Shown: positions 13,382-26,668, counted from the first letter of the stretch. The stretch is 64,000 bases of DNA from an uncultured Bacteriovoracaceae bacterium (GCA_964598565.1 CAZRCG010000009.1:1943-65942), one strand, 5' to 3'. Numbers and translations: made by a program. The notes: generated by a model from the letters alone, not told the origin.

Positions 13382-13470
13382 GAGCGCCTCGCTCTAGCCA
13401 ACACAGTGCTAGATCGATGGGGCTCAGACGTGACATAGATTTTGTATACCTGGGTTCGGTAGCTCAGTTG
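13382..13470 (+). repeat. Copy 1 of an ~89-bp direct repeat (tRNA leader plus first 18 nt of tRNA-Met)
   Basis: Matches 13500-13587 except for a loop difference (ACAGT vs AAAC) and one substitution; ends in GGTTCGGTAGCTCAGTTG. Confidence 0.9.
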
Positions 13471-13499
13471 TCTCACCGCAGGTGAGCCAAGAAACCAGA

Positions 13500-13587
13500 G
13501 AGCGCCTCGCTCTAGCCAACAAACGCTAGATCGATGGGGCTCAGACGTGACATAGATTTTGTATGCCTGGGTTCGGTAGCTCAGTTG
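13500..13587 (+). repeat. Copy 2 of the ~89-bp direct repeat, running into the intact tRNA
   Basis: Direct alignment with 13382-13470. Confidence 0.9.
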
Positions 13588-13646
13588 GCTAGAGCGAGGG
13601 ATTCATAACCCCTAGGTCGGCAGTTCGATCCTGCCCCGAACCACCA
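13570..13646 (+). tRNA. tRNA-Met(CAT), probably elongator
   Basis: Cloverleaf: GGTTCGG/CCGAACC acceptor stem, GCTC/GAGC D-stem, TTCATAA anticodon loop, GGCAG-TTCGATC-CTGCC T-arm, encoded CCA. G1-C72 is paired, so not the initiator; Ile2 is not fully excluded. Confidence 0.93.
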
Positions 13647-13722
13647 TTTATTCGGCCCGCAGGGCCGATAAAATGAACCAGTAAGGCGTTTATACGGCTT
13701 TTTATGTTTTTGGGACCCCTTC

Positions 13723-13743
13723 GTTGCCACACCGTTGCCACAC
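13723..13743 (+). repeat. Island A left arm-type repeat (GTTGCCACAC)C(GTTGCCACAC)
   Basis: 10-mer tandem with 11-bp period; recurs at 17249-17269. Confidence 0.75.
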
Positions 13744-13877
13744 ATGAAACAGAAATCTGCCTCACCACGCGGAAAAAGTGGGGTGGAAAATCCAAAAACT
13801 TGGGTCAAAAAATGGATGGATTTCGGAGTGTTTTTAAGAATGAGTCCTGATGAATTTAGGCGCTTTTAGTGCCTTCG

Positions 13878-14640
13878 TTAAACAGAGTGAACTAGCTTGA
13901 GATGTGAATGTTTTGAATAGCAATCCAAAGCCGACTGTGGATTCTGTTGTAAGCCAGCTTGAAGTTCCGGTGGAGCCTTCAAAGGCGGGCTCTCATTCTT
14001 CGGACTTAGCGAAAAAATGCGGGCTGTATGCCGTAAGTCATGAAATCGAATAGAGCGTCTCCCCCATTCAAGAAGATCTGGTTTAAACATCCGAAACACA
14101 AAGTTATCATGTCCCACTGGATTTCCGTTCGAAGCTTGAAATATTGTTTCGTCGGCCGCGATCTTTTTCTGACGAATCAGATCCTTTAGCTCTTCAAATA
14201 ATTCTCGATTGCATGGAATACGGCGATTCTCTTTGCCCTTCGTCGGGCGAAAGATGCGCTTTAGAATATCAAACTGGCGCTGAATATGAATCAGTTCGCC
14301 ATTTTCAATAATATCGCGCGGCTTTAAGCCCCAAATTTCGCCCGCTCGGGGGCCGGCATTCAGGGCCAAAAGATAAACAACATAAATCCATCGCTTCGAA
14401 CCTTCTCGAAGATATTTCTGATTTGCGAATGAAAGAAAGCCAATCGCATCTTCCTCTGTCAAACATTGAATATCATCTCTCGTTTCTTTCAGCTGTTTAA
14501 AGCGAGCAGTCGTGACTAAAAGGAATCCGCAGTTGCTTCGCAGAAAAATTGAGAACGGAAGTGATGACATTCATTTTTCGGTTCACAGTGGAAGGGCGGA
14601 TGCCCTGAGCCAGGAACTCCGACCGGATGGTCGTCAGAAA
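13878..14640 (-). pseudogene. Tyrosine integrase pseudogene (island A)
   Basis: LNAGPRAGEI, PTKGK and FHDLRHTA motifs. Lacks the 41-aa His/Tyr segment present in the island B integrase. Frameshift near 14513 separates it from a core-binding remnant (IRPSTVNRKMNVITSVLNF). 5' end absent; upstream boundary approximate. Confidence 0.85.
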
Positions 14641-15278
14641 GCCTGGATGAAATCTATTGGGACAAAGACTGCCATATTCAGGCTTTCGGGCCAATATTCG
14701 AACAGAATTCTGTGTGGTAATAAGTGGAAACGTCAGTGTGAGAGTGGTGCCAGTGCCGTCGGTGGATTGAATTTGAAGATCGCCCTCGCACTTCGCCATG
14801 ACACGCCTCGCATGCGATAGACCCAAGCCCTCGCCATGCGGAGTCCCATAAGACCCGCCCTCAGCAAGTACCTTCTGTAAAATATCGGCGCTCATTCCAG
14901 CGCCATTGTCTCCAATCTCGATCTGAATCCGATTCGTTCCCATTGGAGCAAAAGCCTTTATACCAATGGATCCAGAGCAATTCTTTCTCAGAATAGCTGA
15001 AATCGAATTGTCGATAATATTTGAGAGAACTCGAGAGAAAGTCACAGGCGATAGCGGAACAGCGACATCTGATTCCAGTGAGTTAAGTTCGGTTTTGATT
15101 TCAATTCCTGGATGATCGGCCAGTGTCGCTCGTTTTTCTTCATCCAGAGAGAGATAGCTTCCTTGAGAGCCGTGGAGCCACGGACATCTTCTGGCTTGGT
15201 TGCGCGGCCCAGACGTAAGTCTTGAGTGATTTGTTCAATGCGATCGACCACATATTTGATCATCGAATTTTTCTTCAT
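14640..15278 (-). pseudogene. Histidine kinase fragment (HATPase_c) fused to the integrase remnant
   Basis: SNIIDNS (N box), IGDNGAGM (G1), GEGLGLS (G2), GTGTTLTLTFP. The upstream frame joins only after a shift in the AGAGAGAGA run at 15146-15154. Boundaries approximate. Confidence 0.7.
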
Positions 15279-15543
15279 CTCCGAGATCTTCGAAGAGTTT
15301 CGATCTTTTCTGAACGGCCCAAATTGTTCGTAAGCGCTACATGACTGAACCGACTTTTCGTAAAAAGATCACTGCCGCAGCGAAGAAGACGATAGTGGAA
15401 CGAGTGAAGTTTCTGTCAAAAAAGGCCCGACTTCAGAAGCTACATAATTAAGAGATAGAGATTAAACAGGCCTGCTTTCTTCAAAAAGTGGGATCGATCG
15501 GGGGCTTGACCTATGTTTCTGAAATATCCATATTTTGAGCTAC

Positions 15544-15578
15544 TTGTTTGTAACAAAAAATAGTATATAATTGTTACA
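15544..15578 (+). promoter_or_regulatory. Sigma70 promoter with overlapping inverted-repeat operator for the island A TA operon
   Basis: TTGTTT (15544-49), 16 bp, TATAAT (15566-71); inverted repeat TGTAACAA (15549-56) / TTGTTACA (15571-78); ATG at 15581. Confidence 0.6.
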
Positions 15579-15580
15579 TA

Positions 15581-16198
15581 ATGACTAGCATCGAAGCACC
15601 TAAAACTATTGAAATGACTATATTAAGTCGAATATATGGCCATGGTAGGGGTTGGTGCTTTACCCCGGGCGACTTTACGGACCTTGGCTCTTCAGAGAGC
15701 ATACGCATTTCGCTTCATCGCCTCACGAAGAAAGAGACCATACGTCGCATTAGCCATGGATTTTATGATTATCCCATCCGTCACGAAAAACTGGGGATCC
15801 TTCCCCCAAGCCCTGAAGCTATCTCTGATGCCGTGGCAAGAAGAGATCATATTCGAATTCAACCTTCAGGGGCATATGTAGCAAACTTACTGGGTCTTAC
15901 AGAACAGGTGCCAGCCAAGATAACATTTATTACAGAGGGAGCTTCAAAAACGCTCGAGGTTGGTGGCTATCGGATGGTTCTCAAGAAAACAACACCGAAG
16001 AATATGGCTCTTTCTGGACGAGTGTCTGGTCATGTTGTGCAAGCTCTCAAGTATTTTGGAAAGAATCGTATATCCCCCAATCACATCTCCCGCCTTAAAC
16101 GTCGATTGAGGCGCGAGGATAAAGACATTCTCATTCGGGACGCTGCACTGACTCCTGCGTGGATCGCGAAATTAATTCGAAATGAGATTGCGAGGTAA
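15581..16198 (+). CDS. DUF6088/AbiEi-like type IV antitoxin
   Basis: N-terminal wHTH (FTPGDFTDLGSSESIRISLHRL...RRISHGFYDYP), PSGAYVANLLGLTEQVPA; directly upstream of an AbiEii gene. Confidence 0.85.
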   Translation: MTSIEAPKTIEMTILSRIYGHGRGWCFTPGDFTDLGSSESIRISLHRLTKKETIRRISHGFYDYPIRHEKLGILPPSPEAISDAVARRDHIRIQPSGAYVANLLGLTEQVPAKITFITEGASKTLEVGGYRMVLKKTTPKNMALSGRVSGHVVQALKYFGKNRISPNHISRLKRRLRREDKDILIRDAALTPAWIAKLIRNEIAR

Positions 16199-16201
16199 CT
16201 C

Positions 16202-17218
16202 GTGGACGAATTTGCCAACCTATCAGCCGACAAATTGAAGCCCTATTTTGCGATCGCTCGTGATCAAACCAAGCTTGATGACTTTATTATTGAAAAGGAT
16301 TTTTGGGTCTGTTGGATTTTGAAAAGACTTTTTGGTTTGGACGATCTCAAAGATCATCTAATATTCAAGGGGGGAACTTCTCTATCTAAGGCGTATGGGC
16401 TCATTCACCGATTTTCAGAAGATATTGACCTGTCCATCGATCGAACCTATCTCGGATTTGTTGATGAAAAAGACCCCGCGACGAAGAGTCGAGAGAAGCG
16501 AGAAAAATTATTAAAAGACTTACGCGATGCCACGCAAAAATTTGTCCGTAACGAACTATTCCAACAACTAAAGGACAATTTTTCAGATCACTTGCGTAAG
16601 GATCTTGATTGGGCTCTTACCGTAGATCCCGACGATCCTGACCAGCAAAGTCTTCTTTTTCGATACCCATCGATTGCTGCTCGAGGTGAGTTCGCCTATT
16701 TGAAGCAAGAGATCAAACTTGAATTCGGGTCTCGAGGAGAGCTGTGGCCGTCGAAAAAAAGAAAGGTAACTTCAATTCTCGCTGAAAAAATTCCCGACGC
16801 GATGAGTGAGCCTGAGATTGAAGTGACTACCCTCGACGCCGTAAGAACATTTTGGGAGAAAGCTACGATTCTACATAAACTTCATTATTGGCCAGCGGAC
16901 AAGGCTCTTCCCACTCATCACTCGCGTCACTACTACGATATCTATTGTATTCTTGGAGCAAGGGACCCGAGCGAGTTTTTCGAATCCGTCGAGCTTCTCG
17001 AAAAAGTGGCCGAACATAAGCGTCTCTTCTTTCGATCAAGTGCCGCTCGATATGAGCTTGCAAAAAGGGGAACACTTCGATTGAAGCCTTCAGCTGCCAT
17101 CGCCAATATGCTTCACGGCGATTATGAAAGTATGTCGAACATGATTTTTGGAGAACCCCCTGCTTGGAGCGATATTGTTGAACGAATTGCATCATTCGAG
17201 GAAAGTTTTAATCATTGA
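16202..17218 (+). CDS. AbiEii/AbiGii-family nucleotidyltransferase toxin
   Basis: EKDFWVCWIL, FKGGTSLSKAYGLIHRFSEDIDL, RTFWEK and SRHYYDIY motifs. Confidence 0.92.
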   Translation: MDEFANLSADKLKPYFAIARDQTKLDDFIIEKDFWVCWILKRLFGLDDLKDHLIFKGGTSLSKAYGLIHRFSEDIDLSIDRTYLGFVDEKDPATKSREKREKLLKDLRDATQKFVRNELFQQLKDNFSDHLRKDLDWALTVDPDDPDQQSLLFRYPSIAARGEFAYLKQEIKLEFGSRGELWPSKKRKVTSILAEKIPDAMSEPEIEVTTLDAVRTFWEKATILHKLHYWPADKALPTHHSRHYYDIYCILGARDPSEFFESVELLEKVAEHKRLFFRSSAARYELAKRGTLRLKPSAAIANMLHGDYESMSNMIFGEPPAWSDIVERIASFEESFNH

Positions 17219-17248
17219 AAACAGTTGGAGATTCTATTTGGCCCTCTC

Positions 17249-17269
17249 ATTGCCACACCGTTGCCACAC
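17249..17269 (+). repeat. Island A right arm-type repeat (ATTGCCACAC)C(GTTGCCACAC)
   Basis: Same motif as 13723-13743 and also followed by TCTGCCTCAC. Confidence 0.75.
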
Positions 17270-17437
17270 ATTGGCCAGAAATTAACCGAATTCTGCCTCA
17301 CTACGCAGAACTAAAACAGTCGAACCGCCTCTCGGTTGATATTGATTATATTTTGTTACCAAGCCGTATAATCACGTTTTACGAGATCAAGAGGACCATT
17401 TGTTCGAGCACCCGAAACAAGAACGAAAAACACGACA

Positions 17438-17488
17438 GAGGGATTCATAACCCCTAGGTCGGCAGTTCGATCCTGCCCCGAACCACCA
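17438..17488 (+). repeat. att copy 1: 51-bp duplicate of the tRNA-Met 3' part
   Basis: Identical to 13596-13646, from the anticodon stem through CCA. Confidence 0.95.
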
Positions 17489-17533
17489 ACTTTACGCTGT
17501 TTCCAGACGGTTTTGGCGTTTGGGGAATGCGTC

Positions 17534-17554
17534 GATGGTACACCGATGGTACAC
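17534..17554 (+). repeat. Island B left arm-type repeat (GATGGTACAC)C(GATGGTACAC)
   Basis: 11-bp period; recurs at 20805-20825. Confidence 0.75.
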
Positions 17555-17616
17555 ATTTACCCGAAATAGACAGAATCGAACTCCAAAAAATTTTCTAAAG
17601 ATTGTGAAACTGAATT

Positions 17617-18324
17617 CTAAACATAATGGATAAGTCTGAGATGAGATGATTTTGGGTCGGTGGGACTAAAGGCCATCTCCGGTGTGACAGAAAAAACACG
17701 AGCGGCTTCTTTTATTTTTTCTGCCAGTAAATGGACATAATGGATCGTGGTTTTGATGTCCTTATGTCCGGCAATTTCTTGTACCGTTTTTAAGTCGAGC
17801 CCTGCACCCGTCATGAGAGTAATGGCCGTATGCCTCAGATCATGAAATCGGATCGGCTTTCCTCCCCAGGCCATGAGGTCAGGCTTAAAAGTTCGGTAAA
17901 TGAAATTATTGTGATCCACTGGATTTCCACATCCATTTTGGAAAAACGTTTGGTTGAAACCGAGCTTGTTCACCGCAATCAGATGCCTAAGTTCTCTTAA
18001 GAGTTCTTGATTGCAGGGCACGCGTCGATTTTCTTTTCCTTTCGTCGGCCGGAAATCCTTTTGCAGAAGATCATGCTGACGTTGAATATGGATTAGTCCC
18101 TCGCCTTCAAGCAGATCTCGGGGCTTTAATCCCCAGATCTCACCGGCTCTTAAGCCGGCATTCAAAGCCAAGAGGTAAACCACATAAATCCATCGATCCG
18201 TTTGATCCTTTGCGTATTTTTGATGAGCAAAAGAAAGAAAGCGAATGGCTTCTTCACGTTGCCCTTTCAGAAAAGGATGCCTTTTCCGGAGCTGAGCCAA
18301 TGCCTCCGATAATCTCTCCGTCAT
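17617..18324 (-). CDS. Tyrosine integrase, catalytic domain only (N-terminally truncated)
   Basis: GLRAGE (R), PTKG (K), HDLRH (HxxR), AGH and TIHY (Y) all present; only 235 aa, with no arm-binding or core-binding region. Confidence 0.85.
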   Translation of the reverse strand: MTERLSEALAQLRKRHPFLKGQREEAIRFLSFAHQKYAKDQTDRWIYVVYLLALNAGLRAGEIWGLKPRDLLEGEGLIHIQRQHDLLQKDFRPTKGKENRRVPCNQELLRELRHLIAVNKLGFNQTFFQNGCGNPVDHNNFIYRTFKPDLMAWGGKPIRFHDLRHTAITLMTGAGLDLKTVQEIAGHKDIKTTIHYVHLLAEKIKEAARVFSVTPEMAFSPTDPKSSHLRLIHYV

Positions 18325-18657
18325 TAATATAGATGACAGTTTTCAGTCGAAGTTGCGTTTCTTTGACGTGTGATTTGAAAAAATAAATTCTTCTGGTCCA
18401 ACCTCTATCTTGAACTCTTTCTTCCAGTGCAGCCAAAGGGACATCAGTGCTTAAGTTTACGAGACCCAATACGAATTGACAAAAACCTTATTCTATCAGG
18501 CTTTCCCCTATTGGGGCGTGTTTTGGTTATGTGTCATGCGTTAGACTGAGAGGAGCGATGAAGAAGTCAACCAGGGCGGTTGGTTTGGTGGTCCTGGATG
18601 CTTCAGTTTTTAAAAAAATACTTGGCGACATTTCGAGTCAAAACTCACAATAAAGAT

Positions 18658-19131
18658 ATGAAAAAAATTCCTCTTTTTATGACGTTTATAGTAACCCTCG
18701 CAACTTCTCTGTTGGCACGCGAAGGAGTTCTCGAATGTGAGCCGGGGTTATCGTTAGCGAAAGGCAATGAGAGATATATTCCTGCTCTTCCAGAGAAAAA
18801 GTTTTCTGTAGAAGTAACCAATGAAACTGAAAATTTTCAGGTAGAAAAAATTTTTTCTTCTGAAGACTTTGTCGACTCACCACGGTTTGGTGGTGTCATA
18901 AGTATCCGCCTTTATGGAGATCGCGTCCTCGATGCTTCTGAAATCATGCGGATGAGTGTAACTGTAGAGCATCTTTCTCATTCTGACCTCCATTCCGCCA
19001 AGGTTTACGCGGAAGCGGTACAGGTAGCTGATTTTGGGTCCTCTCTTGGGTTTGGGTTAAGGTCGCATCATCGACAACTCTATCGAGCTGCACTCCATTG
19101 TAATTTTCAGCCGAAGCTGGTCGATGAATAA
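18658..19131 (+). CDS. Hypothetical secreted protein (island B cargo)
   Basis: Signal peptide MKKIPLFMTFIVTLATSLLA from ATG 18658; the ORF track starts at 18580. Confidence 0.65.
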   Translation: MKKIPLFMTFIVTLATSLLAREGVLECEPGLSLAKGNERYIPALPEKKFSVEVTNETENFQVEKIFSSEDFVDSPRFGGVISIRLYGDRVLDASEIMRMSVTVEHLSHSDLHSAKVYAEAVQVADFGSSLGFGLRSHHRQLYRAALHCNFQPKLVDE

Positions 19132-19225
19132 TCGACCAGCAATCAAGGTGTTTTAAAATTTTCACCTGTGGATCGCGAGTCGCTTACTTTACTTCATTGT
19201 TTCTGAAAGCGCTCCTGTGAAGCAG

Positions 19226-20059
19226 CTAAAGTTTTTTTTCGAGAGACTCAAGAAAATTGCGGAAAGCTTCCTCAAAACGAGGCGCTTCTGCGATGTTTCC
19301 TGTAGCACTGGCCCATCCTCTTTCTAAGACGGTAAAGTTCATCTGCCGCAGTTCTTCAACAAAGTTTTGGGGAATGGGGGTATCACAATGATGAAAAGTC
19401 CTTCGAATGGCTTCTTTCAAAATCGTGGGGTCGGCTTGGGGAACGAACAAAGAAAGATCCAAAATGTCCTTTGATCGAGAGTTTAGCGCCCCGCGTGACA
19501 TTAGAGCCTGAAGCTTTTCCGCAATCATGGTTTCAAGCGGATAAACTTTCCAACTTAAATCTTCGTCTCCCAGCAGAGAATGAGTTCGGGTTTGAAGCGG
19601 CTCGGGCGTAACAGGGTCTCCAAAGCCAATATCTAAATGAATAATCTGAGCGCGCTTTAAATCGAAAAGTGGCTCTCCAATACCAGCTCTGAAAATAAAG
19701 CGCATGCCGCCATATTCCCCTTGAGTTTCAAGATCCACAGTCTCCTGAAAATGAAACCATGCGGCATCATCGATGCTGACACTTGCGGCAGTCTTTACAG
19801 TTTCAATTAAGGCGTCGCCTCGAATGTGATCTGCGAGAGCATCCAAGTCAACCGTGTAGCGAGGAGACCCATAGAGTCGCATCGCAACAAATCCACCTTT
19901 AAAGATCAGCTTCTCACTCAGCGAAGAGTTATGCAGAAGTCTTGCTAAGAGTCGCTCGATCAAAAACTCTGTCATGATATGCTGAAAAGCGACCTTCCGT
20001 TTCTGTGCAATATTGGAGAGCCGCTTATGGATGGACTTGGCTTGATCTTTTAGACTCAT
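19226..20059 (-). CDS. AbiEii-family nucleotidyltransferase toxin
   Basis: ERLLARL, IFKGG, RYTVDLD, ETMIAEKLQA and SRSKDILDL motifs. Confidence 0.92.
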   Translation of the reverse strand: MSLKDQAKSIHKRLSNIAQKRKVAFQHIMTEFLIERLLARLLHNSSLSEKLIFKGGFVAMRLYGSPRYTVDLDALADHIRGDALIETVKTAASVSIDDAAWFHFQETVDLETQGEYGGMRFIFRAGIGEPLFDLKRAQIIHLDIGFGDPVTPEPLQTRTHSLLGDEDLSWKVYPLETMIAEKLQALMSRGALNSRSKDILDLSLFVPQADPTILKEAIRRTFHHCDTPIPQNFVEELRQMNFTVLERGWASATGNIAEAPRFEEAFRNFLESLEKKL

Positions 20060-20643
20060 GCTGTAATCGCCTCCCAGTGTTTCAGTAATTGAGGAAGCAG
20101 CTTTAAATTTTTAGCTGCCGACTCCAACTTAAGAGGGGTTGTCATTTTTTGGGTGAGCGCCGTTCTCACGGCTTTCAAAGCCACTTGGAGTCCTATCTTT
20201 GATGAATATCGAAGGGCTTCAATGAGGGTGCGCTCTAAATTAGTGATTCGGTAGGTTCCGTGATCCACAATCTCCTTGTGGAGAGGAGTTTGAGCTCGTA
20301 TACATCGATATACTGGTTTCCAACTTCGTTTTGAAGGCGGCACCATGACCCAAATCTGTCTTGGAGGTTCTTCCGTAAGGCGGTAATGAAACAGAGCCGT
20401 CAGTCCCCCAATAACAGATTTTTTTCCAAGAGATTTACAGGCCACTGCAAAATCCACCTCTTCCGCTTGAAGGGAAGACTCTTTAGGAAGAAAAAGCCCG
20501 TGGCCTACTTTTTGAATGTGATCATCTTCTGCAAGTCGATAAAGGGTGCGGCTCGAGACTCCAAGCTTTTCAGCATTCTTGACAGTAATGAGTTCTAGAC
20601 CCTTGAGCTTCTTAAGAAGGGTTTCAGTCGATGGAGGGCGCAT
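20056..20643 (-). CDS. AbiEi-family type IV antitoxin
   Basis: wHTH N-terminus (AEKLGVSSRTLYRL...KVGHGLF), GGLTALFHYRLT, ITNLERTLIEA; 4-bp overlap with the toxin gene. Confidence 0.9.
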   Translation of the reverse strand: MRPPSTETLLKKLKGLELITVKNAEKLGVSSRTLYRLAEDDHIQKVGHGLFLPKESSLQAEEVDFAVACKSLGKKSVIGGLTALFHYRLTEEPPRQIWVMVPPSKRSWKPVYRCIRAQTPLHKEIVDHGTYRITNLERTLIEALRYSSKIGLQVALKAVRTALTQKMTTPLKLESAAKNLKLLPQLLKHWEAITA

Positions 20644-20711
20644 AAAACATTATGTCACAAAATATCCAAAATTTCAAAAAAATGGATACTTTGTGACATA
20701 ATGTTTTATGC
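20640..20711 (-). promoter_or_regulatory. abiE promoter inside a 22-bp perfect inverted repeat (putative AbiEi operator)
   Basis: GCATAAAACATTATGTCACAAA (20640-61) / TTTGTGACATAATGTTTTATGC (20690-711). On the minus strand, TTGAAA (20677-72), 17 bp, CATAAT (20654-49), with the ATG 5 nt later. Confidence 0.75.
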
Positions 20712-20804
20712 ACCAAAACAAATGAATTTCATAGGTTTTGATGTCTAAAATATATGAGGTGACCCCGCGTCCATAGACGACCTTGCGCCGGTGATTTTCC
20801 TGAG

Positions 20805-20825
20805 CGTGGTACACCGATGGTACAC
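20805..20825 (+). repeat. Island B right arm-type repeat (CGTGGTACAC)C(GATGGTACAC)
   Basis: Same motif as 17534-17554; both copies are followed by CCCGAAAT. Confidence 0.75.
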
Positions 20826-20942
20826 AAGATCCCGAAATTCACCGAATTTCCCCGTATCAACCAGAAGTAAAAACATAAGCTAACTCCTCAGAATAATTTA
20901 GTTTTTTGTTTAATTTCAACGACTTAGCATTTTATGTCGAAC

Positions 20943-21022
20943 GGATTCATAACCCCTAGGTCGGCAGTTCGATCCTGCCCCGAACCACCATTTATTCGGC
21001 CCGCAGGGCCGATAAAATGAAC
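20943..21022 (+). repeat. att copy 2: tRNA-Met 3' part plus 32 bp of downstream flank
   Basis: 80 bp identical to 13599-13678. Confidence 0.95.
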
Positions 21023-21025
21023 AGT

Positions 21026-21046
21026 AAGCCTCTTCGGAGGCTTTTT
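21026..21046 (+). terminator. Rho-independent terminator
   Basis: AAGCCTC-TTCG-GAGGCTT followed by TTT; lies between the att copy and a convergent gene. Confidence 0.75.
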
Positions 21047-21075
21047 AAGTTTTCGAGACCCCTTCGTTGCCCTAC

Positions 21076-22365
21076 TTAGAGTAGATTGAGAGCGGTCTTC
21101 GGTGTGCCGAGCCTGTGAGATGACAATGACAGGCCCCAGGTTTTCGCGGCGATGGTCACGATGGCTTTCATACGATGACTGTAAAGATGGTCTCGCAGCA
21201 GGCGCTCTCTGCCTGCTTTGGCAATAGCGAGACGCTGTGAATCTTCCTTCGTGTAATATCTAATTTTATCGTCTCTCTCTTCAGACGATTGGTAAGAAAC
21301 AATTTCTTGTGGTGAAAACATGATATCAAGATCTTCACGATAGTCGGTAAGTGGAAAGCCTCCTGCGCTGAGTATCAAAAGAGGACGTTCATGCACGGCA
21401 GATGCAAATTGAAACTTTGTGAAGCAAAACGACAGTTTCGAAGCCGTGAAGAGAGAATACATATGCGCTTCGTGTAGTCGAGGTGTCATGCGTTGAGAGG
21501 CCTGCACCACGGGCAAAAACGTCTTCCAATGGTCTCCGCCGTACACTTTGAGGCCGAACTGCCGTACTAAATATCGAATCGACTTTGTGAGGCGCCACCA
21601 TGAATAGTAGGTATTCAGGTAAGAATACGTTTCTTCCCATGCTGCTGCTTCAATCTCAGACAACCCAAGTTTTAAAGAGTTCAGCGTGTCTCGAAATTGA
21701 TGGCCATTGGCAATCGGTCGGCAAAAAAGATCTTCGATATGCCGATGAATGAAAGAAATGGTCGCTGGATACGAATGACAAAGCCGAACAGCCAGATTCA
21801 TTTTAAAAAAATAATCGAAGGCATCATCAGATTCGAAGGGTTCAGGGGCCGCAAAAATCTGACTTCCCACATAGGATATAGCACACGCTAGGATGCGGCG
21901 AGCCCCCGCATAACGGGGCGCATTCTGAAAATAGAAGGTAGAAGCGTCTGCAGCAATCGGCAAATGGTATGCATCTTGACCTTGATTAAGCAGAGTCTGT
22001 ACATCAGGGCGATCGACACAAAACACAATGCCATTAGCGAGTTTTCGCTTTAAGCGCCACGCTCGACGTAAGATGCCGTGATCTTGAAAATCCATGGCGT
22101 CGTGATACCAGACAACGACTTTGTATTGCTTTTGAGTAAATAGAAAGTCGTAGACCTCTCTCAGGTTGCCAGAGGGATGAATAAGATGAAAATTTCTTAA
22201 AATTAAAAAGTCAAAAGGTTCGTGCTGTTTTAGAACTGCCAATATTGCAGGGAGCTCTTGAATGGAATTTACATCGATCAGTGTGCATTCCATCTGGCTC
22301 TGCTTAAGTCCTAGCGACATAGCTAAGGACCATTTGTCTCCAAAGGTAGGAATAATACACTTCAC
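21076..22365 (-). CDS. CgeB/Glyco_trans_1_2-like glycosyltransferase
   Basis: C-terminal YGG..W, GGFPLTD, IRYY....R..IA..GRERLLRDHLYSHR pattern; paralog of the genes at 58158-61995. Start moved to GTG 22365 (RBS AGAGG). Confidence 0.8.
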   Translation of the reverse strand: MKCIIPTFGDKWSLAMSLGLKQSQMECTLIDVNSIQELPAILAVLKQHEPFDFLILRNFHLIHPSGNLREVYDFLFTQKQYKVVVWYHDAMDFQDHGILRRAWRLKRKLANGIVFCVDRPDVQTLLNQGQDAYHLPIAADASTFYFQNAPRYAGARRILACAISYVGSQIFAAPEPFESDDAFDYFFKMNLAVRLCHSYPATISFIHRHIEDLFCRPIANGHQFRDTLNSLKLGLSEIEAAAWEETYSYLNTYYSWWRLTKSIRYLVRQFGLKVYGGDHWKTFLPVVQASQRMTPRLHEAHMYSLFTASKLSFCFTKFQFASAVHERPLLILSAGGFPLTDYREDLDIMFSPQEIVSYQSSEERDDKIRYYTKEDSQRLAIAKAGRERLLRDHLYSHRMKAIVTIAAKTWGLSLSSHRLGTPKTALNLL

Positions 22366-22517
22366 CCTCTGACATTTTAGGCCTACTTGTAAATTTTCGC
22401 TATGCAATTCTGTTGACCCAGCGCTCCTTCATCGCACTCACGCACACGACGTTTTACGTTTGAGTCGGTAATAAATTTACAAGTAGGCCTCATGATGGCG
22501 TGAGACCGAGGGACTCA

Positions 22518-25500
22518 CTATCTGAACAGAGCAAGAAATCTTGAACAACCCACAGAGAGAGAACTTATAAACGCCTCTTTCGCGGGCCTCATTGAGCCGC
22601 CTGCAGAACCGCCGCTGTCATCCGAGCTTAAAAATCGTTTTCGAAACCCATTCGCGACGCTTGCCATACCGGCATAACCATGGAGGCTGGGGTCCGCTGG
22701 CGGATGTAAGAGCATATAGTCTCGCAACGACACCGCCGTACTTCGTAGCGTTTCAACACTCAAATCACGTCGAAGGCGAGCTTGGTCAACAACAGCCGCT
22801 GGGATGGACGCTTCGTGATGATGATAAAGCGCTGTTGCTTTCAAAATGACTAAAAACAACGTTTTAGCATTATTCTCAGACGATTCCTTCTCAGCTTGCA
22901 TGATCGCTTGTTGAATCTCATTTAAGATCTTTTCATAACCCAGCCTAACCTGAGCCCCTCGACCAATAATTTGCAGAGCCTTATGAAATCCGTAGAGTCC
23001 AACCCAAACTTGTAGGGCCTGAAACGACGTCACAGCGTCGGCTATTTCCCAAACATATCCAAAGCCAAAAAGCCCAATGACGGTTGTTAAAATGCCAATT
23101 GTCCACGAGGCAGCGCCCTTTTGAATGGCATTCACCGCCATTACCGCTGGCGGCTGTGAGATAGCATGACCAATGAGGCCTTCGATTTTAGTAGTTAACT
23201 GAGCATCCAAACTATCCGTGATCTCAAGATTCTTCGGGAAATCCTTTCCGTGGCGTTCGTACAAACTCGCCAAGCGGTTGCTCAGGTCGACACTAGCATG
23301 GGCCGCCTCTTTTTTGAGAGTCTCTGTAGATGATGAATCCTCTAGCTGAGCCCTACGAACCATCATTCGAAACAGAATATCGGCCAACTTACCGCGCGTT
23401 TCCGATCGGTCCGTATCGGCAACTCGAAAACCGAGCCCATTCCACACCCACCAAATGCGATAGCCCACATAGGCCCAGGCCATTGACAAAGTACCTCTGA
23501 CAAATGATCGATTGGTAATTTCGGGCAACTCTGAAATAGCCGAACGAGGCCCGTTGGCCTCTAAGGCCTCCCATCCATACGAAAGGAAAGCCAAACCCAT
23601 CGTCACGACAAAGAATATTTTAATATACTTTATCTCAGCTTCCGCGAATTTTTTGCCTAAACGAGCCACCCCTTCCCAGAATCTCAACCCCGAATAGCCC
23701 TGCAAATAGTCTTTCTCGCTCTCTGCAATGGAGGCTGCGCCCGTACGAACCAGCAAGCCCTGAATTCTCGCCACGGCAAAGTCTTCAAAATCTTCGGTAG
23801 GTCTGTAAGACTCATTAAGCTTTTGGGACTGCTCTTTGGCCCAAACCCTCACCTCTGTGGGCGCTGTAGAACTCCATAGACCGGCATTCAAGCCAACTTC
23901 GCCGACATCAAACTTTATACTTCCCAAACCAAAGAAGACCTTATCGGTGGCCACCAGATATTCGGCTCTTGCCGGATCAATCGAGCTGAACGTCGGAGAA
24001 AATATAGAACAGGGGTACGTCGTAAGCAGATCAATATACGAATTATAAAGTGAAGCATCGACAACCTCTTTCGGGACTTCGGCTCTATAGTACTCGTAGT
24101 AGCTTCTATTCTGTCCTGCGAATCTCTGAATTATGCGATCAATCAAGTTACTGCGTTTTAAGGTCTGCAGTTTCAATCGTTCTTCCTCGATCAACCCCGA
24201 GGAAATCGAACGAAGATGCTCTTGAAGATTCTGATTGTTTTGAAGACTCGTGCGCACATTGAGCAGCGATCCTTCGTCCACAACCGCAAGACCTCTATGA
24301 TGACTTTCAAGGGTATTCCACACTTCGAGAGATACAAGCGCACTTCTCTCCAGAAAGGACTTCCATTTTTGAGGCCCCAAAGATTCCTGAAGTTTTACGA
24401 AGTCTAAGCTTTCCGCTGTTTTCAGAAGTCCCTGATCGACTAAGGCAGAAAGAATCAAAGTAAGACTCGTATGGTTTGTCACAATGGAAAGAGCCTCCAT
24501 TTTCTTTTGGAGGCTAATGACATCGGGGACGGAAGCTCGATGGTCTCGATAAAGCTGAGGACTAATTCCACGACGAGCTGTTTCAATGAGTTCCTCAAAG
24601 TAATGCTCTCGAGGCGGTTCCTCCTGATGGTGCGACCGAGCCCAAAGAGACTTCACATGATGTACCGTCGCGTCAAGGTCTCGCGCCCAGAACGATTTAT
24701 ACGACTGCAATACCCTAGCAAAAAGACGAAGCGCCATAGAGTAGAATACCGTTAAACCACCGCCTATGGTTTTTGGAACCTCGTGGCCAAGCAAACGAGG
24801 GGCGAAGCCCGGAAAGAAATAACGCAAACTCCCTATGATCAAACCCGTTGCCGCCGCCATACGAAAAAGAAACTTCTGCCAATAATAGACACTGGGACCC
24901 TGTGCCCCCCCCACGGATGATAAGTCGAACGCCAAGACACGATGATCGAGATGCCTGAAAAAGTGATCGGCTGGCACCAAATGGAGCACAGAATTAATCA
25001 GGGTTGTAACCGTAAAATGTAAAGACTCCCCATATGATGTGAACGAAAGATCGCCCGACATGGCCGTTCCGACCGCCGCGACCGAAGCAATGGGTAGGGC
25101 CCCTAACCACACTATCTTTTCTCCCACATAGCGCGCTCCAGAAATACAAGACGCCGCCACATAACTCCACTTTCGCAACTTACGTTCTTCAGTAATTTCA
25201 GCCTCAAGCAAACCTACCTGGGTACTAACACGTGCCTCGAGTGAGTCAGGGGGGGGCTGAAGACGATTCGCTACTGTGGGTCTTTTTTCTGTATCGAGTG
25301 AATAAGCATAGAGATAAGCATAAAATCCGAGCATCTTTAGGAGACGGTGACTAATGAGATTGGGATCTTCTAAAGGATGTTGCTTCCACTCATCGGTTCG
25401 TGAGCCTGCCATCGCCGTCGTCATTGCGGTTTCTGCCGCAAATCGAGGCCACGCTCGTCCCCTCAATAGATGATCCACCATCTCAGGCTGAGCACCATTC

Positions 25501-26513
25501 ACCACGCCGGCCGGCGCAGAAAGAATAGGAGGAAGCTGCGAAATATCGTCAATTCGCTGAGCTAAGTTGGTACGAGCCAACATGATCTCAGCGTGGGTTC
25601 TGCCAGAAAGCGCAATTTCAGCTAATAAAATCGTGTCTTCCACATAGAATTTATCGCCGATTTGACGGCCTACAAGAATATCGCCGTAACGCAAAGACTG
25701 ACGTAGGACAGCAAGTGTTTCTGGGTTGCCGTGAAAAAGCTCGCTCTTCTTGACAGCATCAAAAAATTCCAGATGCACGTCAGCATCTATGGTCTGCGCC
25801 TGCGAAATAAGTGAGGAGACGATCGTCCTTACAAAGCCCACCGCGGTCGGCCCGCCATCTCCAAAGCTATTGGCTTGAAAGAGAAATTCTCGGGGCATGA
25901 GAACACTTAAGAAGTCTCCGTTTTTCAAAAGAATATGAATATGCTGATCATCATGAAGAACACTCTGCACCCCTGGAATCTCGAAGGTCTGAGTATAAGC
26001 CACCCCTCGCGGCAGAGGCCTACCCTGACAAGACACAAGCTTGATTCGCAATCGAGAAGGTTGATTGTTTTGCTCAGGAACAATCTCTATTTTAATATCG
26101 TCTTTTAAACTCCAGTTCAGTGGAGGATTCACATAGTCTGCATTGGGCTCCCCTAGAGTCCATTGGTTGATCAGATTACCCTGCTTATTGTAAAGTTCGA
26201 CGATCTGTCCCAACATATAATGAGGGTCAATTCTCGCAATCGCAGAATCTCGCCCGGCGGCACGATCTCGCTTCATTTGCAGTTCTGCGATTTTTGCAGC
26301 GTCGCCCGACAGGGGCTGCGTGAGAAACGAAAGGGCATTCTCTATCAACGGGGGTGATGCGGCGGCCGCTCCAGAGCCTTCAATCAAAAACGTCTCGGCG
26401 TTCGACCCAGACGTTTCCGCCCAGGTTGAAAAAGGAGAAAAAACCAAAGCAAACAGGAGAAGATTACAGATAATAGAGAAAAGAGACGATTTTCTGATAA
26501 GTCTTATACTCAT
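22518..26513 (-). CDS. Large hypothetical exported multi-TM protein (1331 aa)
   Basis: Long ORF with Sec-type signal peptide and several hydrophobic segments; no family recognised. Confidence 0.8.
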   Translation of the reverse strand: MSIRLIRKSSLFSIICNLLLFALVFSPFSTWAETSGSNAETFLIEGSGAAAASPPLIENALSFLTQPLSGDAAKIAELQMKRDRAAGRDSAIARIDPHYMLGQIVELYNKQGNLINQWTLGEPNADYVNPPLNWSLKDDIKIEIVPEQNNQPSRLRIKLVSCQGRPLPRGVAYTQTFEIPGVQSVLHDDQHIHILLKNGDFLSVLMPREFLFQANSFGDGGPTAVGFVRTIVSSLISQAQTIDADVHLEFFDAVKKSELFHGNPETLAVLRQSLRYGDILVGRQIGDKFYVEDTILLAEIALSGRTHAEIMLARTNLAQRIDDISQLPPILSAPAGVVNGAQPEMVDHLLRGRAWPRFAAETAMTTAMAGSRTDEWKQHPLEDPNLISHRLLKMLGFYAYLYAYSLDTEKRPTVANRLQPPPDSLEARVSTQVGLLEAEITEERKLRKWSYVAASCISGARYVGEKIVWLGALPIASVAAVGTAMSGDLSFTSYGESLHFTVTTLINSVLHLVPADHFFRHLDHRVLAFDLSSVGGAQGPSVYYWQKFLFRMAAATGLIIGSLRYFFPGFAPRLLGHEVPKTIGGGLTVFYSMALRLFARVLQSYKSFWARDLDATVHHVKSLWARSHHQEEPPREHYFEELIETARRGISPQLYRDHRASVPDVISLQKKMEALSIVTNHTSLTLILSALVDQGLLKTAESLDFVKLQESLGPQKWKSFLERSALVSLEVWNTLESHHRGLAVVDEGSLLNVRTSLQNNQNLQEHLRSISSGLIEEERLKLQTLKRSNLIDRIIQRFAGQNRSYYEYYRAEVPKEVVDASLYNSYIDLLTTYPCSIFSPTFSSIDPARAEYLVATDKVFFGLGSIKFDVGEVGLNAGLWSSTAPTEVRVWAKEQSQKLNESYRPTEDFEDFAVARIQGLLVRTGAASIAESEKDYLQGYSGLRFWEGVARLGKKFAEAEIKYIKIFFVVTMGLAFLSYGWEALEANGPRSAISELPEITNRSFVRGTLSMAWAYVGYRIWWVWNGLGFRVADTDRSETRGKLADILFRMMVRRAQLEDSSSTETLKKEAAHASVDLSNRLASLYERHGKDFPKNLEITDSLDAQLTTKIEGLIGHAISQPPAVMAVNAIQKGAASWTIGILTTVIGLFGFGYVWEIADAVTSFQALQVWVGLYGFHKALQIIGRGAQVRLGYEKILNEIQQAIMQAEKESSENNAKTLFLVILKATALYHHHEASIPAAVVDQARLRRDLSVETLRSTAVSLRDYMLLHPPADPSLHGYAGMASVANGFRKRFLSSDDSGGSAGGSMRPAKEAFISSLSVGCSRFLALFR

Positions 26514-26668
26514 ACGATATTGCTAACCCTCAACTTGAAGCTATAAACAACCCCTGCGCCACACGAAGCATCAAGGGCCGCTTAGAATCTGTCCATGTAC
26601 AAATGAGACTTTGCTAATCGATCGTCATTTAATAGTCAATGAGGTTCGGATGCCCGAGATCTGGCCCT

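What the first reader, a model, noticed from the sequence alone, without database searches (positions are those of the whole stretch)
13570..21075. Tandem array of minimal 'integrase stub + AbiE' islands at one tRNA-Met
Two consecutive islands (~3.8 and ~3.5 kb) are delimited by tRNA 3' copies starting at the anticodon arm. Each has a closely related but broken tyrosine integrase at the tRNA-proximal end and an intact type IV TA at the distal end. The two TA pairs belong to different subfamilies (DUF6088-type vs classical AbiEi-type) and are oppositely oriented. Almost all other cargo is gone, while att sites, arm repeats and TA promoters are intact. Either TA addiction protected only these modules during decay, or these are non-autonomous defence cassettes mobilised in trans that accumulate as a tRNA-anchored defence array. 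AbiE systems are established abortive-infection and stabilisation modules.
Basis: partly seen in the sequence, partly recalled or inferred. Interest (0 to 1): 0.75.

Follow-up and report, generated by a model that had tools for sequence, protein, structure and literature searches.

The report
Decayed tRNA islands retaining AbiE modules
Behind one tRNA gene lie the remains of at least three integrated mobile elements, two of them cut down to a dead integrase plus an intact AbiE toxin-antitoxin/phage-defence pair; it is a clean example of a known decay-and-accretion process, not a new kind of system.

Summary
An intact tRNA(CAT) gene (13570-13646) is followed by two exact 48-nt copies of its 3' part (17441-17488, 20943-20990). 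These bound islands of 3842 and 3502 bp. Each island has a broken tyrosine integrase next to the tRNA-proximal att site and an intact AbiEi/AbiEii pair at the far end. Each also has its own arm-type repeats at both ends.

- Intact relatives of the integrases are 380-390 aa. Three of them with about 10 kb of sequence in hand beside the gene all sit at the ends of conjugative elements with type IV secretion genes.
- The integrase lesions differ between the islands: 5' truncations at different points, a frameshift, a 123-nt deletion of the catalytic tyrosine box, and a junction with a histidine-kinase fragment.
- The right edge of the array (20991-21071) is itself a truncated integrase-proximal arm of a third element.

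The best reading is successive integration of related elements, deletional decay to att-flanked remnants (the known "CIME" state), and survival of the AbiE modules. Present mobilisation could not be tested: the public runs are kept only as k=31 contigs, shorter than the 48-nt core. This is a new member of a known kind, of modest interest.

The parts
13570..13646 (+). Intact tRNA gene with CAT anticodon (called Met; elongator Met versus Ile2 not resolved). Its 3' 48 nt (13599-13646) are the att core of attL.
   Evidence: ARAGORN; repeat family D1.
13647..13760 (+). Integrase-proximal (P') arm of island 1. It has a 33-nt hairpin segment (13647-13679), a second hairpin (13683-13700), a T-rich/CCTTCGT motif, then arm-type sites TGCCACAC-CGT-TGCCACAC (13725-13743).
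   Evidence: Sequence. Alignment with the P' arms of intact relatives (A3). 8-mer map.
13878..14683 (-). Integrase 1 pseudogene. Homology to the intact relative P0002 starts at its residue ~99 (window ~14683). It has a +1 frameshift near 14513 and a 123-nt in-frame deletion after ~14024 that removes box II with the catalytic Tyr. The arm-binding N-domain is absent.
   Evidence: Pfam; protein alignment A1; tblastn; DNA alignment.
14684..15278 (-). Cargo remnants of island 1. A HATPase_c (histidine-kinase C-terminal) fragment is fused upstream of the integrase remnant in ORF 14497-15045. A 78-aa ORF lies at 15042-15278. No HisKA part is left.
   Evidence: Pfam HATPase_c E=6e-17; frame reading.
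15550..15577 (+). Operator-like inverted repeat GTAACAA-N14-TTGTTAC. It spans a TATATAAT box just upstream of the abiEi_1 start codon.
   Evidence: Sequence. Function inferred from AbiEi autoregulation described.
15581..16198 (+). AbiEi antitoxin of the DUF6088 type (205 aa), intact.
   Evidence: Pfam DUF6088 E=1.8e-44; PADLOC AbiEi PDLC02226 E=8e-66.
16202..17218 (+). AbiEii nucleotidyltransferase toxin (338 aa), full length. It carries the motif I/II sequence FKGGTSLSKAYGLIHRFSEDIDL.
   Evidence: Pfam AbiEii E=1.3e-41; PADLOC PDLC02289 E=5e-100; the listed homologues of 331-380 aa cover 91-100% of it.
17251..17269 (+). Arm-type sites TGCCACAC-CGT-TGCCACAC of the distal (P) arm of island 1.
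17441..17488 (+). Second att core: an exact copy of the tRNA 3' 48 nt. It is the junction between island 1 and island 2.
17489..17616 (+). P' arm of island 2, with a hairpin-like segment, a T-rich motif and arm-type sites TGGTACAC-CGA-TGGTACAC (17536-17554).
17617..18324 (-). Integrase 2 stub (235 aa). The catalytic domain has all conserved catalytic residues. Homology to full-length relatives starts at their residue ~175 (window ~18255). The arm-binding and core-binding domains are missing.
   Evidence: Pfam; 380-390 aa relatives; alignments.
18580..19131 (+). Intact ORF of 183 aa (probably ~157 aa from the internal MKK start) with a signal-peptide-like N-terminus. Function unknown; cargo of island 2.
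   Evidence: ORF list; no Pfam, PADLOC or NCBIfam hit.
19226..20059 (-). AbiEii toxin 2 (277 aa), intact. Motifs: FKGGFVAMRLYGSPRYTVDLD, KLQALMSR, KDILD.
   Evidence: Pfam; PADLOC PDLC02288; PDB 9hlo_B E=1e-26; motifs.
20056..20643 (-). Classical AbiEi antitoxin 2 (195 aa). It overlaps the toxin gene by 4 nt.
   Evidence: PADLOC AbiEi PDLC02225 E=1e-28. Pfam AbiEi_4 and AbiEi_1 match only below their curated cut-offs (24.2 bits against 25; 20.6 against 22.2). Overlap.
20637..20714 (.). Palindrome with 32-nt arms (94% complementary). It encloses a promoter-like TTGAAA-17-CATAAT for abiE_2 and is a candidate AbiEi operator.
20807..20825 (+). Arm-type sites TGGTACAC-CGA-TGGTACAC of the distal (P) arm of island 2.
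20943..20990 (+). Third att core: an exact copy of the tRNA 3' 48 nt.
20991..21071 (+). Remnant of the P' arm of a third element. It has the same 33-nt hairpin segment as island 1, a second hairpin with compensatory changes (21026-21043) and the family motif TTTTAAGTTTTCGAGACCCCTTCGT. It breaks off inside the first arm-type site (TGCC), 4 nt before the stop codon of the glycosyltransferase-like ORF (21076-22407).
   Evidence: Alignment A3. 0/80 versus 11/50 differences, Fisher p=1.3e-5. Terminator-like hairpin.

Best explanation
A family of ~385-aa tyrosine integrases has three domains (arm-binding, core-binding and catalytic). It uses the 3' part of tRNA genes as its attachment site. The elements carrying them bring their own copy of the tRNA 3' end, a hairpin and paired 8-mer arm sites.

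At least three related but distinct elements of this family, most likely ICEs or their derivatives, integrated one after another at this tRNA(CAT) gene. This produced the layout tRNA - island 1 - core - island 2 - core - remnant 3.

Deletions, plus one frameshift, then removed the excisionase-like gene, the transfer genes and parts of the integrases. What remains are att-flanked, non-autonomous remnants, i.e. the CIME state. The third element was deleted down to about 80 nt.

In both surviving islands the AbiE operon at the integrase-distal end stayed intact. Each operon consists of an AbiEi autorepressor/antitoxin and an AbiEii nucleotidyltransferase toxin, with an operator-like palindrome over its promoter. 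The likely reason is that losing an AbiE pair is counter-selected, either by addiction (stabilisation) or by loss of abortive-infection defence, or both.

**Shown here:** the anatomy, the lesions, the intactness of the AbiE pairs, and the ICE context of intact relatives.

**Inferred:** the order of events, that the ancestors of these two islands were full ICEs, and that selection on the TA modules explains their survival.
For: **att architecture.** There are three exact cores. Island-specific arm sites lie at both ends of each island. The P' arm layout is shared with elements that have intact integrases (A3).

**Integrase lesions.** Full-length relatives are 380-390 aa. Integrase 1 has lost residues 1-98, has a +1 frameshift and has lost 41 aa including the catalytic Tyr. 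Integrase 2 has lost residues 1-~174. The lesions differ between the islands, and one junction is with a kinase pseudogene.

**Contexts of intact relatives.**
- L089, L093 and L005 carry TraC/TraG/TrbI/coupling-protein or relaxase genes next to the integrase and a tRNA-Met.
- L092, the nearest intact relative of integrase 1 in the searches, shares the HTH_17-like small ORF and the 518-aa ORF with the L089 ICE.
- None of these genes is left in the window.

**Third remnant.**

**AbiE pairs intact.**

**Depth.** Both islands are present in essentially every genome copy: depth 28.7 and 27.2 against flanks of 30.6 and 29.1.

**Composition.** Island GC is 43-46% against 48-50% in the left flank (the dcw genes); the sequence to the right is intermediate, 45-50%.

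**Literature.**
- The three-step route of integration, decay to CIME and accretion is described in PMC5704250.
- AbiE stabilises plasmids (PMC3985639).
- AbiE stabilises an ICE (PMC11062541).

**Similar decayed units elsewhere.** L085 has an N-truncated integrase with MazE/PIN. L086-88 have an integrase stub island next to an integrase-less DUF6088-AbiEii unit at a tRNA-fMet.
Against: - The distal ends of the intact ICE relatives were not in hand. It is therefore not shown that such ICEs carry AbiE next to their far att site.
- The nearest AbiEii_1 homologues (53-55% identity) lie in unrelated contexts.
- With only two islands, survival of the TA pairs could be chance.
- Cores and arm sites are perfectly preserved. 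This fits recent decay but equally fits continued use.
- No related genome was available to show the empty or differently filled site.
- The order of units rests on the contig as given. The public k=31 unitigs break at every core.
Confidence: 0.75

Rival explanations
1. The islands are still-mobile, non-autonomous defence cassettes (functional CIMEs). A cognate integrase and excisionase, supplied by an incoming or resident ICE of the same family, excises and re-integrates them or carries them along by accretion. The tRNA locus would then act as an array that collects defence modules.
For: - All three cores are exact, and each island keeps paired arm-type sites at both ends.
- L092 shows a P arm - core - P' arm junction almost identical to island 1's arms next to an intact integrase. 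Cognate helpers therefore exist in nature.
- Other small stub-plus-TA units exist (L085, L086-88).
- Cis-mobilisation of CIMEs is documented.
Against: - The two islands have different arm sites, so they would need two different helpers.
- There is no family integrase in the window.
- There is no integrase gene at 80% or more nucleotide identity in the three metagenomes.
- The truncation points and junk (kinase fragment, frameshift) look like accidents, not a conserved cassette design.
- Depth gives no hint of extra copies or loss.
- The AbiE relatives are not linked to this integrase family.
Confidence: 0.15
2. Integrase 2 (235 aa, catalytic domain only, all catalytic residues present) is a working minimal recombinase, like the ~200-aa FimB/FimE type. 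Island 2 would then be an autonomous mini-element.
For: - The ORF is open and the catalytic residues are conserved.
- Weak matches to tyrosine-type DNA invertase models cover most of the protein.
- Several independent stubs in metagenomes begin near the same domain boundary, residues 169-185.
Against: - Homology stops abruptly at residue ~175 of relatives, and unrelated sequence lies upstream.
- The island keeps arm-type sites that need the missing N-domain.
- The stub starts are spread over residues 94-203, and the sample is biased by the query used.
- Some stubs are frameshifted or flanked by fragments.
Confidence: 0.04
3. The array is an assembly artefact. The units are joined in the wrong order across the repeated core, or one or both 'islands' are really separate circular molecules collapsed into the chromosome path.
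For: In the k=31 unitig graph the three in-edges and three out-edges of the core cannot be paired. The island 2 unitig (3514 nt) is exactly the unique part plus 30 nt at each end.
Against: - The core is only 48 nt (80 nt for the outer pair), which ordinary reads span, and the 115-kb contig runs through it.
- Depths of islands and flanks are equal.
- The islands have no replication genes.
- The same low-depth pieces occur in two further samples.
Confidence: 0.05

Closest known systems
Cis-mobilizable elements (CIMEs) and tandem accretion at att sites (ICESt1-related elements of Streptococcus thermophilus; reviewed in PMC5704250)
   Same: - The units are flanked by attL/attR-type sites at the 3' end of a target gene.
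- They have lost working integration and transfer genes.
- They lie in tandem with related units.
- They are explained by integration, decay and further integration into a resident att site.
   Different: - The host is an uncultured lineage, with MutS only 51% identical to a Bacteriovoracaceae MAG.
- The target is a tRNA(CAT) gene.
- No intact element is present in the array.
- Mobilisation is untested.
AbiE type IV toxin-antitoxin / abortive infection systems (Lactococcus, Streptococcus agalactiae; PMC3985639)
   Same: - A bicistronic abiEi-abiEii operon with close or overlapping genes.
- A DUF1814 nucleotidyltransferase toxin with motifs I-IV (pair 2) or I-III (pair 1).
- Inverted repeats over the promoter.
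   Different: - Pair 1 uses a DUF6088-type antitoxin, and its motif IV reads RHYYD rather than +DxxD.
- Toxicity, neutralisation and phage resistance were not tested.
TA modules that stabilise integrated elements (AbiE + SezAT of ICESsuHN105, PMC11062541; MosAT of SXT and SgiAT of SGI1, as cited)
   Same: An AbiE-type module sits on an integrative element of ICE ancestry. The proposed role is to prevent loss of the element.
   Different: Here the element that the TA would stabilise has itself decayed, so only the TA and the att sites remain. In ICESsuHN105 AbiEi also binds oriT, and no oriT is recognisable here.
Integron cassette arrays
   Same: A superficial likeness: short units in series at one site, each bounded by recombination sites, with TA cassettes known to stabilise large arrays (from general knowledge).
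   Different: - There is no integron integrase with a Pc promoter and attI.
- There are no attC hairpin sites.
- Each unit carries its own integrase remnant and lambda-type arms, and the units are 3.5-3.8 kb.
- NCBIfam integron-integrase scores are far below cut-off.

Membership tests
CIME (cis-mobilizable element) in a tandem array | Flanked by attL and attR sites generated by site-specific integration | tested here: met
   There are three exact 48-nt cores, with island-specific arm-type sites inside both ends of each island.
CIME (cis-mobilizable element) in a tandem array | No functional integration/excision or transfer genes | tested here: met
   - Integrase 1 lacks the N-domain, is frameshifted and lacks the catalytic Tyr.
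- Integrase 2 lacks the arm- and core-binding domains.
- No excisionase-like, relaxase or T4SS gene is present.

Loss of function is judged from sequence only.
CIME (cis-mobilizable element) in a tandem array | Derived from an ICE or IME by deletion | tested here: inconclusive
   Intact relatives of the integrase sit at the ends of T4SS-bearing ICEs. The direct ancestors of these two islands are not available.
CIME (cis-mobilizable element) in a tandem array | Can be excised or transferred when a related element supplies the functions | not testable with these tools
   The public runs are kept as k=31 contigs, shorter than the 48-nt core.
AbiE type IV TA / Abi system | Adjacent AbiEi (wHTH antitoxin) and AbiEii (DUF1814 NTase) genes in one operon | tested here: met
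   Pfam and PADLOC hits for both pairs. Pair 1 has a 3-nt gap between its genes and pair 2 a 4-nt overlap.
AbiE type IV TA / Abi system | NTase motifs I-IV needed for toxicity | tested here: met
   - Pair 2: GG-x14-DLD, KLQALMSR, KDILD.
- Pair 1: GG-x15-DID, KATILHKL, and RHYYD in place of +DxxD, so motif IV is only partly matched.

Sequences are; motif definitions are.
AbiE type IV TA / Abi system | Autoregulation through inverted repeats in the promoter | tested here: inconclusive
   Inverted repeats overlap promoter-like hexamers upstream of both operons. Binding was not tested.
AbiE type IV TA / Abi system | Toxin toxicity, neutralisation by the antitoxin, phage resistance or stabilisation | not testable with these tools
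   Needs expression and phage-challenge experiments.
tRNA-targeting tyrosine integrase of integrative (conjugative) elements | Full three-domain protein with catalytic R-K-H-R-H-Y | tested here: not met
   Both copies are truncated, and integrase 1 also lacks H and Y. They are remnants of members, not working members.
Integron | IntI integrase, attI, and attC-bounded promoterless cassettes | tested here: not met
   The integron-integrase models score 44 and 30 bits against cut-offs of 265 and 435. The repeats are tRNA 3' copies, not attC sites. The TA operons have their own promoters.

The most novel reading that the evidence does not exclude
The tRNA(CAT) locus is a working, integron-like collector. 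ICE-family integrases arriving in the cell would shuffle small att-flanked AbiE/TA cassettes in and out in trans or in cis, so the array's defence content would turn over without the cassettes encoding any recombinase of their own.
Probability: 0.1. Interest if true: 0.6.

Novelty: new member of a known kind. Interest (0 to 1): 0.3.

Why it matters
This is a well-resolved natural example of how integrated conjugative elements erode. The integrase, excisionase and transfer genes go, while the att sites, arm sites and an addictive or defensive AbiE module stay, and new elements stack on top.

It shows that stand-alone AbiE pairs found next to tRNA genes in poorly sampled lineages can be the last surviving genes of ICEs.

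It also offers two sets of matched att and arm sites with a known intact cognate integrase in metagenomes (P0002). These could be used to test cis/trans mobilisation of such remnants.

It does not reveal a new mechanism.

Tried and rejected
1. **Survey of the locus in related genomes.** A scan of 185,579 species genomes with FtsI found only a 27%-identical hit. The lineage has no close genome, as the best MutS hits are 51-53% identical.
2. **Circles, empty sites and turnover.** The three runs that hold the locus are kept as k=31 contigs that break at the 48-nt core. The only 'joint' reported (17481 to 13640) is the core + hairpin unitig shared by attL and the right end, so it is not evidence for a circle.
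3. **Helper integrase.** None is in the window. No contig at 80% or more nucleotide identity is in X1-X3.
4. **Prophage origin.** The best IMG/VR relatives are at most 32% identical, so this was rejected.
5. **The metagenome scan with the integrase profile.** This gave only four close loci.
6. **Is AbiE a dedicated cargo of this integrase family?** The two nearest AbiEii_1 homologues lie in unrelated contexts. Only L086-88 link a DUF6088-AbiEii pair (40-42% identity) to a family att array.
7. **The 159-aa ORF before the L086 stub as a split integrase N-terminus.** There was no similarity to P0002, so this was rejected.
8. **Kinase fragment related to kinases near other stubs (L086, L096).** Only 34% identity to L096, and no hit at E<=1e-5 to L086, so no link.
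9. **RNA evidence.** No RNA runs are available.

Full report
**Observation**

ARAGORN places an intact tRNA with anticodon CAT at 13570-13646 on the + strand. The last 48 nt of this gene, from the anticodon stem through CCA, recur exactly at 17441-17488 and 20943-20990. A 32-nt part of the repeat has three matches in the window, against none in 100 shuffles. The copies bound two units of 3842 and 3502 bp.

- A Phage_integrase fragment lies on the minus strand next to the tRNA-proximal end of each unit (13878-14570 and 17617-18324).
- An AbiE pair lies at the far end of each unit.
- Unit 1 has a DUF6088-type AbiEi (15581-16198) with AbiEii (16202-17218) on the + strand.
- Unit 2 has a classical AbiEi (20056-20643) with AbiEii (19226-20059) on the - strand.

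Each unit has its own pair of 8-mers with an 11-nt period near both ends. TGCCACAC lies at 13725/13736 and 17251/17262. TGGTACAC lies at 17536/17547 and 20807/20818. All are on the + strand, and neither motif occurs elsewhere on that strand in the 64 kb.

**How the integrases are broken**

A search with integrase 2 found 350 relatives, and nearly all of the best ones are 380-390 aa. These have three parts: an N-terminal segment of ~65 aa, a core-binding domain (weak Phage_int_M/Int_N/SAM-like hits, residues ~68-160) and the catalytic domain (residues ~171-355). Protein and DNA alignments show the following.
- Integrase 1 matches its nearest intact relative found, P0002, only from residue ~99 (window ~14683).
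- Integrase 1 has a one-base insertion near 14513 that shifts the frame.
- Integrase 1 lacks 41 codons that hold the second His and the catalytic Tyr.
- Upstream of residue 99, the integrase 1 reading frame continues into a HATPase_c fragment of a histidine kinase with no HisKA part.
- Integrase 2 matches relatives only from residue ~175 (window ~18255). Its catalytic residues are all present, but both DNA-binding domains are gone.

The two remnants are 67% identical to each other. They are broken at different places and in different ways.

**What the intact relatives are**

Three intact relatives with about 10 kb of sequence in hand beside the integrase all lie at the end of conjugative elements.
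- L089 (P0007) has TraC, TraG P-loop and TrbI genes. The same integrase lies next to a tRNA-fMet gene in L091, and the 3' part of that tRNA lies at the end of L089.
- L093 (P0006) has TrbC, a TraG-type coupling protein and a Replic_Relax relaxase.
- L005 has TraG, TrbI and a coupling-protein-like ATPase next to tRNA-fMet.

In these elements the integrase gene is preceded by a small ORF of 84-105 aa, with weak HTH_17 (excisionase-type) matches in the two that were scanned (L092, L089). In L089 and L092 a 518-aa ORF lies further upstream. L092, the contig of P0002, has the same two genes. Neither gene has any trace in the window.

No relative above 32% identity exists in IMG/VR, so a prophage origin is unlikely. 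The family also targets tRNA-Arg(TCT) in L001 and L008.

**att-site anatomy and a third element**

I aligned the sequence that follows the tRNA 3' end in both islands with that in four elements carrying intact integrases. They share one layout: tRNA end, a hairpin, a T-rich stretch ending in CCTYCG(A/T), then two 8-mers separated by 3 nt (A3). This is the element-borne, integrase-proximal arm.

The sequence to the right of the third core (20991-21071) has the same layout and stops inside the first 8-mer (TGCC), 4 nt before the stop codon of a glycosyltransferase-like ORF. Compared with island 1's arm, the first 80 nt (core plus a 33-nt hairpin segment absent from other family members) show 0 differences. 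The next 50 nt show 11, mostly compensatory changes in the second hairpin (Fisher p=1.3e-5).

I read this as the stump of a third element, related to island 1, whose body was deleted. So the array records at least three integrations, and the right boundary is a deletion scar, not the original chromosome.

L092 carries a P arm - core - P' arm junction. Its P' arm is close to island 1's and carries nearly the same arm sites (TGCCGCAC/TGCCACAC), and 15 of the 16 bases of its P arm next to the core match island 1's, all beside an intact integrase. Cognate working elements therefore exist in nature.

**The AbiE modules**

- Both pairs hit AbiEi/AbiEii models strongly and belong to different sub-models.
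- AbiEii_1 is full length relative to thousands of homologues.
- AbiEii_2 matches the solved AbiGII/AbiEii chain 9hlo_B.
- The NTase motifs defined by Dy et al. (PMC3985639) are present, with a variant motif IV in pair 1.
- Both operons have inverted repeats over promoter-like hexamers. Pair 1 has GTAACAA-N14-TTGTTAC across a TATATAAT box at 15550-15577. Pair 2 has a palindrome with 32-nt arms at 20637-20714 that encloses TTGAAA-17-CATAAT. This is what AbiEi autoregulation requires.

AbiE has been shown to give phage resistance and to stabilise plasmids. It has also been shown to stabilise an ICE (PMC11062541).

**Population and context**

- MutS is at most 53% identical to anything in the protein collection, and the best named hit is a Bacteriovoracaceae MAG.
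- A scan of species genomes with FtsI found no relative, so the locus cannot be compared across relatives.
- In the metagenome that holds the genome at ~29x, island depths (28.7, 27.2) equal flank depths (30.6, 29.1). The islands are therefore present in essentially all cells.
- These runs are kept as k=31 contigs that break at the core, so neither circles nor empty sites can be seen.
- No other integrase gene at 80% or more nucleotide identity occurs in the three runs, and none of the family occurs in the window.
- Island GC is 43-46% against 48-50% in the left flank; the sequence to the right is intermediate at 45-50%.

**Interpretation**

The evidence fits the three-step route described for tandem integrated elements: integration, decay to a CIME that keeps attL and attR, then accretion of further elements (PMC5704250). 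Several features argue for accident rather than design.
- The lesions are idiosyncratic.
- There is a kinase pseudogene junction.
- The excisionase-like and transfer genes are lost.
- The third unit is reduced to ~80 nt.

The remaining integrase frames have no stop codons apart from the one frameshift, and the cores and arm sites are perfect. This suggests that decay was recent and driven by deletion.

Survival of both AbiE operons is best explained by counter-selection of their loss through addiction, defence or both. With two cases, that remains an inference.

Comparable decayed units exist elsewhere.
- L085 is a 3.4-kb unitig with a 244-aa integrase stub, a MazE/PIN pair and a DUF2971 gene.
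- L086-88, at a tRNA-fMet of a groundwater deltaproteobacterial MAG, hold an integrase-stub island next to an integrase-less unit with DUF6088-AbiEii (40-42% identical to pair 1) and an AEP-TOTE helicase. They have their own GTGGACC arm repeats.

**Rivals**

- *Still-mobilisable cassettes.* This is not excluded because the sites are intact. However, the two islands would need different helpers, no helper was found, and the AbiE relatives are not tied to this integrase family.
- *A working minimal integrase 2.* This is unlikely because homology ends abruptly and the retained arm sites need the missing domain.
- *An assembly artefact.* This is unlikely given equal depths and a core shorter than a read, but raw reads were not available to check.

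**Verdict**

The finding is real and well described, and the anatomy is richer than first read. It belongs to a known kind: CIME-like remnants in tandem at a tRNA, with TA modules as survivors.

Noticed in passing
window 13382-13590: There is a ~117-nt tandem duplication just upstream of the tRNA (13382-13473 and 13500-13590, 97-100% identical). Each copy ends with the first ~19-21 nt of the tRNA. Each copy also contains an inverted 16-nt copy of tRNA positions 15-30 (CCTCGCTCTAGCCAAC at 13387 and 13505). It may be a scar of another rearrangement or integration at the 5' side of the gene.
   Followed up: partly
window 14497-15278: A histidine-kinase pseudogene (HATPase_c only, no HisKA) is fused in frame to the integrase 1 remnant. 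A 78-aa ORF with no family match lies upstream.
   Followed up: partly
window 22518-29287: Two very large ORFs (1331 aa and 872 aa, minus strand) lie just beyond the array with no Pfam match at all. It is unclear whether they are native or cargo of the deleted third element. No fourth core copy exists in the window.
   Followed up: no
L086 7590-16440 (also L087, L088): In a groundwater deltaproteobacterial MAG, a tRNA-fMet is followed by two further 3'-copies, and 146 nt are repeated at 95% identity. One copy lies upstream of the tRNA itself and the other upstream of the second core, and each has arm-type GGTCCACC repeats at its outer end. An element arm therefore also lies on the 5' side of the tRNA. 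The L087 variant has an IS66 insertion.
   Followed up: partly
L085 1-3400: A 3.4-kb unitig carries MazE + PIN, a 190-aa ORF, a DUF2971 protein and a 244-aa N-truncated family integrase. Its first 30 nt look like the reverse complement of a tRNA T-arm/anticodon-arm piece. It is another stub-plus-TA mini island.
   Followed up: partly
L092 1690-1906: Next to the intact integrase P0002 lies a P arm - core - P' arm junction with no tRNA 5' half. This is either an excised circular form or an inner junction of another array. The core differs from the window's by compensatory changes in the anticodon and T stems, so the host is a related but different species.
   Followed up: partly
L001 1560-11470: A tRNA-Arg(TCT) has a family integrase on its 3' side. 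A 46-nt copy of its 5' half lies 9.5 kb away. Between them are a different 350-aa integrase, an HTH_17 gene and a DnaB_C/AAA_25 gene. This element seems to duplicate the 5' half of the tRNA.
   Followed up: no
proteins P0001, P0040, P0053, P0058, P0069, P0109: Six of fifteen integrase stubs found in metagenomes begin within residues 169-185 of the full-length protein, at the core-binding/catalytic domain boundary. The sample is biased by the query and by gene calling, so this may mean nothing.
   Followed up: partly
window 19704-19873: Contigs in two runs match a ~170-nt stretch of abiEii_2 and then run on into unlike sequence. One skips 103 nt (19735 to 19839), at depths (6.5 and 14.2) that differ from the host genome. 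Another organism in the same community carries a related abiEii.
   Followed up: no
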